64,000 nucleotides of DNA from Escherichia coli (GTDB lineage Bacteria; Pseudomonadota; Gammaproteobacteria; Enterobacterales; Enterobacteriaceae), in the NCBI RefSeq assembly GCF_013122565.1, contig NZ_CP053258.1; one strand, given 5' to 3'. Below, piece after piece: positions 1-9,090 of the stretch (positions are counted from its first letter, which is position 1; each line of letters begins with the position of its first letter). The notes beneath the pieces are model-generated. The model was not told where the DNA came from, ran no database searches, and saw nothing but the letters and a program-made list of their open reading frames with translations. The position numbers were made by a program, and so were the translations under genes.

Positions 1-588
1 CAGCAATATGCAGTAGCGGGAAAGAACGCGGTTCAGCAAATTATTACTTGCCAGATGGCTGTACTCTTCTTTGAGCGTCAGAATCACCTGCGTACCCGTT
101 TCCGAGGACTGATGCGGCGTAACGGTATATTTTTGCCCGTCAGTAGAGTGGTATTTCCAGCTCTGATCCGGCGTTTGCCAGGATGTGGTCAACACCGTGA
201 CCTCTTTTGCAAGTACAAATGCTGACAAGAAACCAAGGCCGAACATACCAATTAAACCGGTGTTGTCATCCTGCTGGCGCAACATTCGGGTATAACCCAC
301 GCCCACTGTTGCCAGGAAGCCGTGAATTTCGCTTTCTGTCAAACCCGCACCGGTATCGGTAATGGTGATGGTGGACTTCGCCACGTCTGCCACTACACGA
401 ATTTGGTTATCCTTTGGCGCATCGGGCTGCTCAATCCTGCGGCGCACGATCGCATCGTGTCCGTTCTGCACCAGCTCGCGCACGGCGACCACGGGCGTAG
501 AGTAAAGGTGCTTACTGAGCACCTCAATTAAGCCGTTTAAATTAACTTCAGTAGAATATGAACTGCCAGGTAACTGTAATGTACTCAT
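1..588 (-). CDS. HSP90/HtpG-family ATPase paralog, N-terminal part (gene continues beyond window start)
   Basis: Hand translation of minus strand from ATG at 588: MSTLQLPGSSYSTEVNLNGLIEVLSKHLYSTPVVAVRELVQNGHDA...ITITDTGAGLTESEI...LIGMFGLGFLSAFVLAKEVTV, matching HtpG N-domain motifs (RELISNASDA, ISDNGVGMT, IGQFGVGFYSAF). Sits in the K-12 yiiG position; identity with yiiG not verified. Confidence 0.55.
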   Translation of the reverse strand, partial: MSTLQLPGSSYSTEVNLNGLIEVLSKHLYSTPVVAVRELVQNGHDAIVRRRIEQPDAPKDNQIRVVADVAKSTITITDTGAGLTESEIHGFLATVGVGYTRMLRQQDDNTGLIGMFGLGFLSAFVLAKEVTVLTTSWQTPDQSWKYHSTDGQKYTVTPHQSSETGTQVILTLKEEYSHLASNNLLNRVLSRYCILL

Positions 589-854
589 TTTTCAATACTC
601 ATAATCCATCACCCACTATTGAAAATACATTGCTGTTTTTACAACCGGTGCAAGGTTTGTTATTTGCATTCACTCATCAGAAACATTTATTTATTGATGC
701 GATGATTAAAACAAAATGTCTTATATAAATAATGATTAATTCTTAAAGGATTAATGCGACCGGAGTATATCGATATAAACCGGAATTAACGAGATAATTT
801 ATTGTGGTGAAAATATTATTTAAATGCTGAATAATATATTGAGGATTATTTAAT

Positions 855-900
855 AGAAAAATAAAACCGCAATCCAGAATCAGAATTGCGGTATTTATTT
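855..900 (-). terminator. Stem-loop accgcaatccagaatcagaattgcggt with flanking T/A runs, downstream of fdhD
   Basis: Inverted repeat 866-892 flanked by T-rich tracts on both strands, immediately 3' of the fdhD stop. Confidence 0.5.
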
Positions 901-1735
901 AATTATGAATCAAACGCTGCGGATGCGTATAAACCGTCGCCCGACCCGGTTTACAAAAGCCCACCAGCGTCAGATTACAGCGCTCGGCCACTTCCACGGC
1001 AAGTGTGGTCGCGGCAGACACCGCAAACAAAATCTCTACGCCACACATCGCCGACTTTTGCACCATTTCATAACTGGCACGGCTGGAAACCAGTACCGCA
1101 CCTTGCTGCCAGCTTTCCCCTTCTTGTGACCGGCGGCCTAACAGTTTGTCCAGCGCCACATGACGCCCCACGTCTTCATGCCCGCCGACCAGTTCGCCAG
1201 ATGGCAACATCCATGCAGCGGCGTGAGTACAACCAGTCAGTTGCCCCACTGGCTGGAAATCGTTGAGATGACGTAATGCATCATCCAGTTTGTTGAGATC
1301 AAACGTCTGGGTGAACGGTAGCGGCTGCACCGGTTTTCCGATGTCATTAAGTTGCTCCACGCCGCATACACCACAGCCCGTACGTCCCGCCAGCGCCCGG
1401 CGGCGCTCCTTCAACCCCATAAAGCGGCGGCTGGAAAGCTCAATTTGTACTTCAAGACCATTACAGGAAGGAACGACATCCATGCCGAAGATATCGCGCG
1501 GGCTTTCTATAATCCCCTCGGAAAGCGAAAAACCGAGCGCAAAGTACTCAAGGTCTTTGGGCGACGCCATCATCACCACATGCGAAATGCCGTTGTAGAC
1601 CAGCGCAACGGGAACTTCTTCCGCCACCTCATCTAACCGTGGGTGTTGTAAATCATCACGTCGCCATAACACAATTTGACGAACACCTGTGACATTTGTC
1701 ACATTTTCGATTTCTTTTTGCTGTGTTTTTTTCAC
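899..1735 (-). CDS. fdhD: Formate dehydrogenase accessory sulfurtransferase FdhD
   Basis: 278-aa ORF divergent from fdoG; length and position match K-12 fdhD. Confidence 0.9.
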
Positions 1736-8575: not shown

Positions 8576-8985
8576 AATAATAAGAGCGTTGCAGTTGTTT
8601 CAATTGTTACTCAAAAATGGTTTAGTTATCGCCCAAAATGAATTATAGGTGCTATGAATATATTATATTCAGGGATATTTATTTTTTCATTGGATCTTTA
8701 TTTGCATAATCTGAATGGTGTAGCCGAAAAATGTCAGCATCCTAACAGCACCCGGATTTACGGTGAAATTAATCATCCATCACAGACCGGTCAGTACTGC
8801 TACCAACCGGTCTTAACTTGCTCATCGTTATAATTTTGTTGGTAACAGTTCGGGAAACAAGGAATTCCTTCCGGAACACCCCTGACATCATCCGATAGCA
8901 TTGACGTCAATCATCGGCGCGACGATGAGTTTTTTAATCGCATCATAGGGTGGCAACGGTCAGCACGATTACGGGTCATAGCAAA

Positions 8986-9090
8986 ACTCCTGAGCAGGTG
9001 GCACTACGCCGCTTTCACAGGAGTTCTGAATGCTGGTGCTTTCTGTATGGCATAACCATGCCTCTAACGGTTAAGTGCTTGCAGCACATG
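8986..9090. repeat. About 105-bp direct repeat, copy A (overlaps 3' end of antitoxin gene)
   Basis: aactcctgagcag..gccgctttcacaggagttctgaatgctggtgctttctgtatggc.. recurs at 10802-10906 with roughly 85 percent identity by eye. Confidence 0.8.

What the first reader, a model, noticed from the sequence alone, without database searches (positions are those of the whole stretch)
1..898. Truncated HSP90 (HtpG-family) paralog next to fdhD, preceded by an AT-rich spacer
Hand translation of the minus strand from 588 gives an unmistakable HSP90 N-terminal ATPase domain (RELVQNGHDA, ITDTGAGLT, LIGMFGLGFLSAF). E. coli has its housekeeping htpG elsewhere, so this is a second, divergent HSP90-like gene. The 300-bp spacer 589-898 is extremely AT-rich. 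Divergent HSP90-like ATPases are of interest as possible stress or defense components. Whether this equals K-12 yiiG, which occupies this position, is unverified.
Basis: partly seen in the sequence, partly recalled or inferred. Interest (0 to 1): 0.5.

Follow-up and report, generated by a model that had tools for sequence, protein, structure and literature searches.

The report
HSP90 paralog with obligate TPR partner
The window starts inside an intact second HSP90-type chaperone gene that is paired across many bacteria with a large uncharacterised TPR protein; about 95% of complete E. coli genomes, K-12 included, lack the pair, apparently through deletion.

Summary
Window 588→1 (minus strand) encodes the first 196 residues of an HSP90-family ATPase, and 589-898 is 27.7% G+C. 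The gene is cut only by the window edge. In near-identical E. coli genomes it is 611 aa and is followed 1 nt later by a 768-aa TPR-solenoid gene.

It is not yiiG, which is a separate DUF3829 lipoprotein gene next door, and it is not a copy of htpG. It scores below the curated cut-offs of both HtpG and NCBI's 'HSP90 family protein' model, so it forms its own clade.

The two genes are adjacent on the same strand in 74 of 75 loci found through the partner, and in 4 of 4 found through the HSP90 side. These span Xanthomonas, Stenotrophomonas, Lysobacter, Betaproteobacteria, an alphaproteobacterial MAG, Holophaga and a Chloroflexi MAG. No third gene is conserved.

In Enterobacteriaceae the pair sits at one locus next to fdhD and diverges in step with its flanks. 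254 of 5426 complete E. coli genomes keep it. K-12 lacks exactly 4.55 kb between short repeats. I found no link to defence, plasmids or phages.

The most likely function is a specialised Hsp90 machine with a dedicated TPR adaptor or client. That function is inferred, not shown.

The parts
1..588 (-). Codons 1-196 of a 611-codon HSP90-family gene (N-terminal GHKL ATPase domain). The rest of the gene and the partner gene lie beyond the left edge of the window.
   Evidence: Translation. Pfam HATPase_c_3 E=1.3e-10. The full gene was recovered from LHM10-1 as L001 13753-15588, 99.66% nucleotide identity over these 588 bases. The full protein hits Pfam HSP90 at 33.8 bits (cut-off 24.4), NF010683 at 288 bits and TRAP1/HtpG at E~1e-30.
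589..865 (-). AT-rich 5' region of the operon, presumed promoter and regulatory region. It contains a 24-bp palindrome, CCGGAGTATATCGATATAAACCGG, at 760-783.
   Evidence: 27.7% G+C over 589-898. The spacer is 93.5-99% conserved across Escherichia species, as well as or better than the adjacent coding sequence. Palindrome. No consensus sigma-70 site was found on the minus strand, so the promoter is not located.
866..892 (-). Intrinsic-terminator-like hairpin directly downstream of fdhD, followed by a T run.
   Evidence: Terminator scan: 10-bp stem with 5 G-C pairs, then TTTATTTTTC.
1..894 (.). Right-hand end of the 4.55-kb segment that K-12 lacks (TPR gene, HSP90 gene, spacer and fdhD terminator). 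The junction lies at the last codons of fdhD.
   Evidence: blastn of K-12 against L001: K-12 homology stops at L001 11339 and resumes at 15895, which is window 895. Both junctions carry TATTT(A)TTTAATTA.
899..1735 (-). fdhD, the flanking core gene. It is context, not part of the module.
   Evidence: ORF list and RefSeq annotation of the colinear locus.

Best explanation
Window 1-588 is the start of the first gene of a two-gene operon. That gene encodes a catalytically intact HSP90-family ATPase of 611 aa. It is followed 1 nt later by a 768-aa partner. The partner has a highly conserved N-terminal helical module with four near-invariant cysteines and one histidine, then a long TPR-like solenoid, then a C-terminal alpha/beta domain with no detectable relatives. 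I propose that the two proteins work as one unit: a specialised Hsp90-type chaperone whose TPR partner is its dedicated adaptor or co-chaperone, or possibly its obligate client, while ATP binding and hydrolysis by the HSP90 dimer drives remodelling. Shown here: the identity and intactness of the ATPase, the strict gene pairing, the partner's fold class, the vertical inheritance, and the absence of the pair from most E. coli. Inferred: physical interaction, chaperone activity, metal binding by the Cys4 motif, and any physiological role. The AT-rich spacer is the operon's 5' regulatory region plus the fdhD terminator.
For: HSP90 identity:
- The full-length protein passes Pfam HSP90 and HATPase_c_3 cut-offs.
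- It aligns with TRAP1 and HtpG over the N and middle domains at E~1e-30. The middle-domain catalytic arginine motif aligns too: TASRE here against LSRE in TRAP1.
- E38/N42/D45, D78xGxG, GxFGxGFxSAF and R321 are at least 95% conserved in 76 clade members.

Pairing:
- The partner family forms 560 clusters at 50% identity, all about 750-785 aa and aligned end to end.
- In 74 of 75 loci with a complete upstream gene, the partner starts -4 to +122 nt after the HSP90-like stop on the same strand.
- The reciprocal test from the HSP90 side gave 4 of 4 with a 754-776 aa Pfam-less gene directly downstream.
- No other gene is conserved across 26 genus-level representatives.

Partner structure:
- The AlphaFold2 model has pLDDT 95 and pTM 0.87.
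- Invariant or near-invariant residues include C101, C106, C144, C147 and H66.

Vertical inheritance and loss:
- Identity of the pair tracks its flanks from E. coli to Superficieibacter.
- Salmonella Infantis carries the pair at the same fdhD-proximal locus.
- K-12 lacks exactly the 4.55-kb segment, between microhomologies. K-12's intergenic terminator is homologous to the one downstream of the TPR gene.
- Other deletion forms occur at the same locus.
Against: - No experiment or interaction prediction was possible. Adjacency shows co-function, not what that function is.
- The HSP90-like C-terminus has no conserved EEVD-type tail, so the eukaryotic way of docking TPR proteins does not apply.
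- The C-terminal 250 residues match no solved HSP90, so dimerisation is unverified.
- No sigma-32-like or clear sigma-70 promoter was seen, so heat-shock control is unsupported.
- One genome, Thorsellia, has the partner with no HSP90-like gene anywhere in the 15-kb locus retrieved.
- About 95% of complete E. coli genomes lack the pair, so any role is dispensable there.
Confidence: 0.55

Rival explanations
1. The partner is not an adaptor but the obligate client. It would be a metal- or redox-active protein (Cys4 plus His module) whose folding, metal loading or activation needs its own HSP90-type chaperone, and the physiological activity lies in the partner.
For: The most conserved part of the partner is the N-terminal 180 residues, with 56% mean column identity. 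It has invariant C101, C106, C144, C147, H66, D119 and E133. That pattern is more typical of a metal or active site than of a repeat scaffold. The partner evolves faster overall than the HSP90-like protein (31-41% against 52-63% identity).
Against: No enzyme family matches the N-terminal module or the C-terminal domain, by Pfam or PDB sequence or profile. Fold searches of the whole-chain model returned only TPR solenoids. The C-terminal domain has few conserved polar residues.
Confidence: 0.2
2. It is an anti-phage or conflict system: a TPR sensor protein coupled to a GHKL ATPase.
For: It is accessory in E. coli at 4.7% of complete genomes. There are weak PADLOC hits of the GHKL N-terminus to TmtA and a type II restriction enzyme model. 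The best structural matches include MalT domain III and phage AimR/Rap-type sensor TPRs.
Against: No recognisable effector domain is present. PADLOC finds nothing for the partner. The PADLOC hits cover only the generic ATP-binding fold, whereas the protein aligns with HSP90 over more than 550 residues. The pair occurs in every one of the roughly 20 named Xanthomonas species among the 80 returned loci. It sits in housekeeping contexts: efp/earP, greA, serS, thiC, topA and hslVU. It is inherited vertically. The locus shows the pair or one of a few deletion forms rather than varied cargo. The partner matches 3 of 72,556 plasmid records and no genuine phage.
Confidence: 0.08
3. It is a recently acquired genomic islet, with the AT-rich spacer as a sign of foreign DNA, rather than an old resident locus.
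For: The spacer is 28% G+C and the segment is absent from K-12. Distribution across Proteobacteria is patchy, with 55-63% identical HSP90-like proteins in distant phyla, which implies some horizontal transfer at deep levels.
Against: The genes have E. coli-like composition at 49-51% G+C. There is no integrase, transposase or tRNA at the junctions. The position and order are the same in E. whittamii, other Escherichia and Superficieibacter, and Salmonella carries the pair at the same fdhD-proximal locus. Where measured, divergence of the pair matches that of fdhD and frvR. K-12's remaining terminator is homologous to the one downstream of the TPR gene, as expected for a deletion.
Confidence: 0.07
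4. It is an artefact: a misassembled copy of htpG, or simply K-12 yiiG.
For: None.
Against: It scores only 199 bits on the HtpG model against a cut-off of 371, and is about as distant from HtpG as from mitochondrial TRAP1. It is a single chromosomal copy at the same place in 254 complete genomes. yiiG is a different, adjacent DUF3829 gene.
Confidence: 0

Closest known systems
HtpG / TRAP1 (canonical bacterial and mitochondrial HSP90)
   Same: Same GHKL N-domain motifs and the same middle-domain catalytic arginine loop. Alignable over residues 10-359 at E~1e-30, and similar in length at 611 aa against 624.
   Different: It scores 199 bits against the 371-bit HtpG cut-off. Its C-terminal 250 residues are not recognisable against solved HSP90s. 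It is always paired with a TPR protein, whereas no co-chaperone is known for HtpG to my knowledge (my own knowledge of the field, not tested here).
NCBIfam NF010683 / PRK14083 'HSP90 family protein' (non-HtpG bacterial HSP90 clade)
   Same: It is the best-scoring model and aligns nearly end to end, residues 13-571 on model positions 8-562 of 604.
   Different: Every member tested scores 270-290 bits, well under the 455-bit cut-off: E. coli, Xanthomonas, P. aeruginosa PA7, Holophaga, Chloroflexi and Superficieibacter. This makes it a sister clade, which is why RefSeq calls it only 'ATP-binding protein'. Whether true NF010683 members also have a TPR partner was not tested.
Eukaryotic HSP90 with TPR co-chaperones (Hop/Sti1, PP5, CHIP, Tom70, UNC-45)
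   Different: There is no EEVD-like tail on the HSP90-like protein. The partner is far larger and carries two unrelated conserved modules. The link here is genetic (operon), and binding is not shown.
CnoX (YbbN) and Hsp33: bacterial TPR-containing and Zn-Cys4 stress holdases
   Same: CnoX joins a redox module to a TPR domain (PMC10490939). That CnoX hands clients to ATP-dependent chaperones, and that Hsp33 uses a four-cysteine zinc centre as a redox switch, is from my own knowledge. The partner combines four conserved cysteines with TPR repeats.
   Different: There is no thioredoxin fold and no sequence similarity to either. Metal binding and redox sensitivity are untested.
Sacsin and other HSP90-like GHKL modules (MORC, MutL-type, MzaB, TmtA)
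   Same: Weak N-terminal hits to the sacsin ATP-binding domain, BbrUII/HgiDII restriction enzyme, MzaB and TmtA models.
   Different: Those hits cover only the ATP-binding fold, about 100 residues. This protein keeps HSP90-specific middle-domain features that they lack.

Membership tests
HSP90 family (Pfam PF00183 with a GHKL N-domain) | Bergerat-fold ATP site: catalytic Glu, Mg-binding Asn, DxGxG, and the glycine-rich lid GxxGxG | tested here: met
   E38, N42, D45, D78-G80-G82 and G113-F-G-L-G-F are present in the window translation and at least 95% conserved in 76 clade members. HATPase_c_3 scores 41.9 bits against a cut-off of 25.
HSP90 family (Pfam PF00183 with a GHKL N-domain) | HSP90 middle domain with the catalytic arginine loop (…LSRE…) | tested here: met
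   PF00183 scores 33.8 bits against a cut-off of 24.4. 'LTPTASREDLQ' aligns with TRAP1 'IPLNLSRELLQ'. R321 is conserved. This was seen in the full-length gene from L001, not inside the window.
HSP90 family (Pfam PF00183 with a GHKL N-domain) | C-terminal dimerisation domain | tested here: inconclusive
   The NF010683 profile aligns to model position 562 of 604. No solved HSP90 aligns beyond residue 359.
HtpG orthologue (NCBIfam NF003555, equivalog) | Score at or above the curated cut-off of 371 bits | tested here: not met
   199 bits for E. coli and 185-192 bits for five other clade members.
NCBIfam NF010683 'HSP90 family protein' (equivalog) | Score at or above the curated cut-off of 455 bits | tested here: not met
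   288 bits for E. coli and 270-290 bits for other members.
YiiG (DUF3829 lipoprotein), the K-12 gene at this position | Sequence identity with K-12 b3896, or presence of a DUF3829 domain | tested here: not met
   yiiG is a separate gene (L001 10195-11250) beside the pair. K-12 goes directly from fdhD to yiiG. A DUF3829 profile hits only that neighbour.
EEVD-dependent TPR co-chaperone system (Hop/Sti1 type) | Conserved acidic EEVD-like C-terminal tail on the HSP90 | tested here: not met
   C-termini end …LINQGK, …QLLAR, …QQMLR and so on. No acidic tail is conserved in 75 sequences.
EEVD-dependent TPR co-chaperone system (Hop/Sti1 type) | Carboxylate-clamp residues in a three-repeat TPR domain of the partner | not tested
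Known anti-phage defence systems (PADLOC-DB v2) | Significant full-length match of either protein to a defence-system model | tested here: not met
   The HSP90-like protein gives only N-terminal GHKL hits at E no better than 5e-6 over about 110 residues. The partner gives no hits.
STAND / NLR-like sensors (MalT-type) | P-loop NTPase (NACHT or NB-ARC) module preceding the TPR sensor | tested here: not met
   The partner has no P-loop domain by Pfam or NCBIfam. The resemblance is limited to the TPR superhelix.

The most novel reading that the evidence does not exclude
This would be the first bacterial Hsp90 system with a dedicated TPR co-chaperone. It is an ancient clade spread across several phyla, in which an HSP90 ATPase works obligatorily with a Cys4-containing TPR-solenoid protein. 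That would be an independent or ancestral counterpart of the eukaryotic HSP90-TPR co-chaperone arrangement, docking in a way that does not use EEVD.
Probability: 0.35. Interest if true: 0.7.

Novelty: new variant of a known kind. Interest (0 to 1): 0.45.

Why it matters
To my knowledge, bacterial Hsp90 (HtpG) is regarded as working without co-chaperones, and its clients are poorly defined. A second HSP90 clade locked to one large TPR protein offers a simple two-component system for asking how an Hsp90 is targeted. It occurs across Gammaproteobacteria, Betaproteobacteria, an alphaproteobacterial MAG, Holophaga (Acidobacteria) and a Chloroflexi MAG. It is available in tractable hosts: E. coli E2348/69 and ST131-type strains, Xanthomonas, Stenotrophomonas and P. 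aeruginosa PA7. K-12 is a natural null background.

For E. coli genomics, it shows that a gene that looks 'accessory' can be an old resident being lost by small deletions rather than an imported island. The gene is also under-annotated in RefSeq, as 'ATP-binding protein' and 'tetratricopeptide repeat protein'. I found no paper on the pair in the searchable library.

Tried and rejected
- **First homologue search.** Searching with the E. coli HSP90-like protein returned 120 near-identical Escherichia entries and gave no distant view. I switched to the representative library for the partner and to a Holophaga query for the HSP90 side.
- **Single-sequence AlphaFold2.** The model of the partner was useless at pLDDT 46. 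The run based on alignment A1 gave pLDDT 95.
- **Fold searches.** They take only whole models, so the C-terminal alpha/beta domain was swamped by TPR matches. The afdb50 library was not available. Model coordinates are not exposed, so I could not check whether the four cysteines are close in space.
- **Profile searches of partner modules.** Searches of the C-terminal domain (A2) and the N-terminal module (A3) against PDB sequences and Pfam found nothing significant.
- **Neighbour clustering.** Naive ORF calling produced spurious antisense ORFs in high-GC loci, which formed the third cluster. The conclusion that no third gene is conserved rests on the real clusters only.
- **Literature.** Seven searches found nothing on this pair: Hsp90 paralog/TPR, Hsp90xo, anti-phage+Hsp90+TPR, HtpG groups, Xanthomonas/Stenotrophomonas paralog, HtpG co-chaperone operon, and conflict systems/GHKL. 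The only relevant background was Chen et al. 2006 on HtpG groups A/B/C (PMC1525184), which cites Stechmann & Cavalier-Smith 2004 on deep bacterial paralogy.
- **Promoter.** The consensus scan found no sigma-70-like site on the coding strand of the spacer. I saw no sigma-32-like motif by eye.
- **Rejected readings.** The gene is not yiiG, not a misassembled htpG, not a plasmid- or phage-borne element, and not at a hotspot with variable cargo.

Full report
**1.

The minus strand from window 588 reads MSTLQLPGSSYSTEVNLNGLIEVLSKHLYSTPVVAVRELVQNGHDA…ITITDTGAGLTE…GLIGMFGLGFLSAF… and runs off the left edge after 196 codons. The fragment alone matches Pfam HATPase_c_3 at E=1.3e-10, 41.9 bits against a cut-off of 25. 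The 310-bp spacer 589-898 is 27.7% G+C. fdhD occupies 899-1735 on the same strand.

**2. The complete gene and its partner**

A megablast of window 1-898 finds one chromosomal copy in 254 of 5426 complete E. coli genomes, at 90-99.4% identity, and none on plasmids.

In strain LHM10-1 (L001) the gene is an intact 611-codon ORF annotated 'ATP-binding protein'. One nucleotide after it, on the same strand, comes a 768-codon 'tetratricopeptide repeat protein'. The local order is fdhD, HSP90-like gene, TPR gene, yiiG, frvR. E2348/69 has the same pair but no yiiG.

So the gene is truncated only by the window. It is also not yiiG: K-12 goes straight from fdhD to yiiG, a DUF3829 lipoprotein gene.

**3. 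What the first protein is**

- The full-length protein passes the Pfam HSP90 and HATPase_c_3 thresholds.
- It aligns with TRAP1 and E. coli HtpG over residues 10-359 at E~1e-30. The middle-domain arginine loop aligns as well.
- NCBIfam ranks NF010683 'HSP90 family protein' first at 288 bits (cut-off 455), and HtpG NF003555 second at 199 bits (cut-off 371).
- Five homologues give the same sub-threshold pattern: Xanthomonas, P. aeruginosa PA7, Holophaga, a Chloroflexi MAG and Superficieibacter.

The clade is therefore a distinct branch of the HSP90 family. It is not a copy of htpG. In 76 members the ATP-site residues and R321 are at least 95% conserved, so these are active enzymes under strong constraint. 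There is no conserved EEVD-like tail.

**4. What the second protein is**

Sequence libraries give only weak TPR hits, and PADLOC gives nothing. The representative library holds 560 clusters of relatives, 355 of them at E<1e-30. Nearly all are 750-785 aa and align end to end.

A 74-sequence alignment shows a strongly conserved N-terminal module. It has invariant W6, W59, C101, P102 and D119, and near-invariant H66, C106, C144 and C147. The motif reads CPQSxC…37…CxxC.

With that alignment, AlphaFold2 gives pLDDT 95 and pTM 0.87. The model is an all-helical solenoid for residues 1-562, a short low-confidence linker near 360-376, and an alpha/beta domain for residues 580-768.

Neither the N-terminal module nor the C-terminal domain matches any Pfam family or solved structure by profile.

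**5. The pairing is the rule**

A scan of one genome per species found 237 relatives of the partner. The 80 loci returned cover:

- roughly 20 named Xanthomonas species plus unnamed Xanthomonas isolates;
- Stenotrophomonas, Lysobacter and Pseudoxanthomonas;
- P. aeruginosa PA7;
- Azovibrio, Azoarcus, Azonexus, Duganella and Variovorax;
- Holophaga, a Chloroflexi MAG and Desulfovibrio;
- Phytobacter, Kosakonia, Budvicia, Superficieibacter, Wohlfahrtiimonas, Ignatzschineria and Thorsellia.

In 74 of 75 loci with a complete upstream HSP90-like ORF, the partner starts -4 to +122 nt after its stop on the same strand. The exception has the two genes 2.5 kb apart.

Going the other way, I started from four HSP90-side relatives in other backgrounds: an alphaproteobacterial MAG, a Methylophilaceae MAG and two unnamed metagenome contigs. 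All four have a 754-776 aa Pfam-less gene directly downstream.

No third gene is conserved across 26 genus-level representatives. The surroundings are ordinary housekeeping genes.

The one real exception is Thorsellia, where the partner has no HSP90-like gene anywhere in the 15-kb locus retrieved.

**6. History at the E. coli locus**

K-12 lacks exactly L001 11340-15894, which is 4555 bp. That segment holds the TPR gene, the HSP90 gene, the spacer and the fdhD terminator. Both junctions carry TATTT(A)TTTAATTA. K-12's remaining intergenic hairpin is homologous to the terminator downstream of the TPR gene. The junction changes the last codons of fdhD, from …QRLIHN here to …QRLSN in K-12.

The same gene order is found in E. 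whittamii, other Escherichia and Superficieibacter. Salmonella Infantis carries the pair at the same fdhD-proximal locus.

Nucleotide identity of the two genes tracks that of fdhD and frvR across Escherichia and Superficieibacter:

| Compared with LHM10-1 | HSP90 gene | TPR gene | fdhD |
|---|---|---|---|
| E2348/69 | 97.3% | 93.9% | 96.7% |
| E. whittamii | 93.6% | 89.3% | 91.0% |
| Superficieibacter | 76.4% | 71.2% | 76.2% |

Among E. coli genomes without the pair, 3643 have the K-12-type junction. Roughly 1500 match only the first 297 bases of the junction probe. In the one such genome I examined, AR_0006, yiiG is an N-terminally truncated pseudogene, which points to a different, larger deletion.

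The genes have host-like composition at 49-51% G+C, and there are no mobility genes at the junctions. The partner matches 3 of 72,556 plasmid records. Its one 'phage' match is a mislabelled Salmonella contig.

The simplest reading is an old, vertically inherited locus that is being lost piecemeal, not an imported island.

**7. The spacer**

It contains the fdhD terminator hairpin at 866-892. The remainder is the 5' region of the operon.

It is 93.5-99% conserved within Escherichia, at least as well as the coding sequence. It holds a 24-bp palindrome at 760-783.

No consensus promoter was found on the coding strand, so regulation is unknown.

**8. Mechanism**

What is shown is an intact HSP90-type ATPase, strictly and tightly co-transcribed with one TPR-solenoid protein. 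I infer that they act as one machine.

- **Most likely (about 0.55):** the partner is a dedicated adaptor or co-chaperone. Its TPR groove and conserved N-terminal Cys4 module would engage substrate or signal, while the HSP90 dimer supplies ATP-driven remodelling.
- **Client variant (about 0.2):** the partner is itself the client or the active component.
- **Defence (about 0.08):** this is disfavoured. There is no effector domain. PADLOC gives no hit for the partner and only short N-terminal ATP-fold hits for the HSP90-like protein. The pair is present in every Xanthomonas genome among the returned loci. The contexts are housekeeping, inheritance is vertical, and the pair is absent from mobile elements.
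- **Recent island (about 0.07):** also disfavoured, for the reasons in section 6.

**9. Comparison with known systems, and novelty**

The first protein is a member of the HSP90 family. It is not an HtpG orthologue, and by the curated thresholds it is not a member of NF010683.

The arrangement works like eukaryotic HSP90 with TPR co-chaperones but fails the defining EEVD feature. It also recalls CnoX and Hsp33, but without any homology.

Chen et al. 2006 (PMC1525184) describe non-canonical bacterial HSP90 groups B and C. I did not place this clade among them, and I found no paper describing the TPR pairing.

I class the finding as a new variant of a known kind. Interest is moderate: it is a good lead for the Hsp90 field, but the gene itself is already catalogued and no function has been demonstrated.

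The rest of the window is ordinary E. coli core sequence: fdoGHI-fdhE, the yih sulfoquinovose genes, glnALG, polA, an rRNA operon and fadBA.

Noticed in passing
L001 10195-11250 (yiiG); L091 2314-4505 and 9897-10997; L009 3-593 and 5024-7007; L095 2998-3954: DUF3829 (YiiG-family) exported proteins flank the HSP90-TPR pair in 8 of 93 loci from three unrelated backgrounds: Enterobacteriaceae at about 50% G+C, and two metagenome contigs at 63% and 69% G+C. In Salmonella and L009 there are three copies, on both sides of the pair. None were seen in Xanthomonadaceae loci. This could be a recurrent functional link, such as a client, or a coincidence.
   Followed up: partly
L074 4755-7061 (Thorsellia anophelis): This is the only genome seen where the partner gene stands alone, with no HSP90-like gene anywhere in the 15-kb locus retrieved. 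Its neighbours are a NAMPT-type phosphoribosyltransferase, a PRPP-synthetase-like gene, an HD plus AAA_33 protein and an RNA ligase.
   Followed up: partly
window 895-905 (3' end of fdhD): FdhD ends …HPQRLIHN (278 aa) here but …HPQRLSN (277 aa) in K-12. The presence/absence junction of the 4.55-kb segment falls in the last codons of fdhD.
   Followed up: yes
L090 4290-4931 (E. coli AR_0006); L002 (E2348/69): There are at least three different deletion forms at this locus. In the K-12 type the pair is lost and yiiG is intact. In AR_0006 the pair is lost and yiiG is an N-terminally truncated pseudogene, and roughly 1500 genomes share its partial junction match. In E2348/69 the pair is kept and yiiG is lost.
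   Followed up: partly
window 760-783: A 24-bp palindrome, CCGGAGTATATC|GATATAAACCGG, lies in the conserved AT-rich spacer. It is a possible operator for an unknown regulator.
   Followed up: no
window 8985-9089 and 10802-10905; window about 10820-13200: Two imperfect direct repeats of about 105 bp (about 89% alike). The second lies at the left edge of a 2.4-kb stretch that is absent from E2348/69. The colinear LHM10-1 record annotates a transposase and a truncated hypothetical gene there.
   Followed up: no
L005 2383-2760: In a sewage metagenome contig a second partner-like ORF begins right after the first, at 45% identity to residues 1-126. This suggests a tandem duplication of the partner gene.
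   Followed up: no
L091 (AFYI01000005.1): A record in the 'phages' collection is really a 156-kb Salmonella Infantis chromosomal contig. It shows the pair near fdhD in Salmonella, with no S. Typhimurium LT2 locus tag noted for either gene in the record's annotation.
   Followed up: partly
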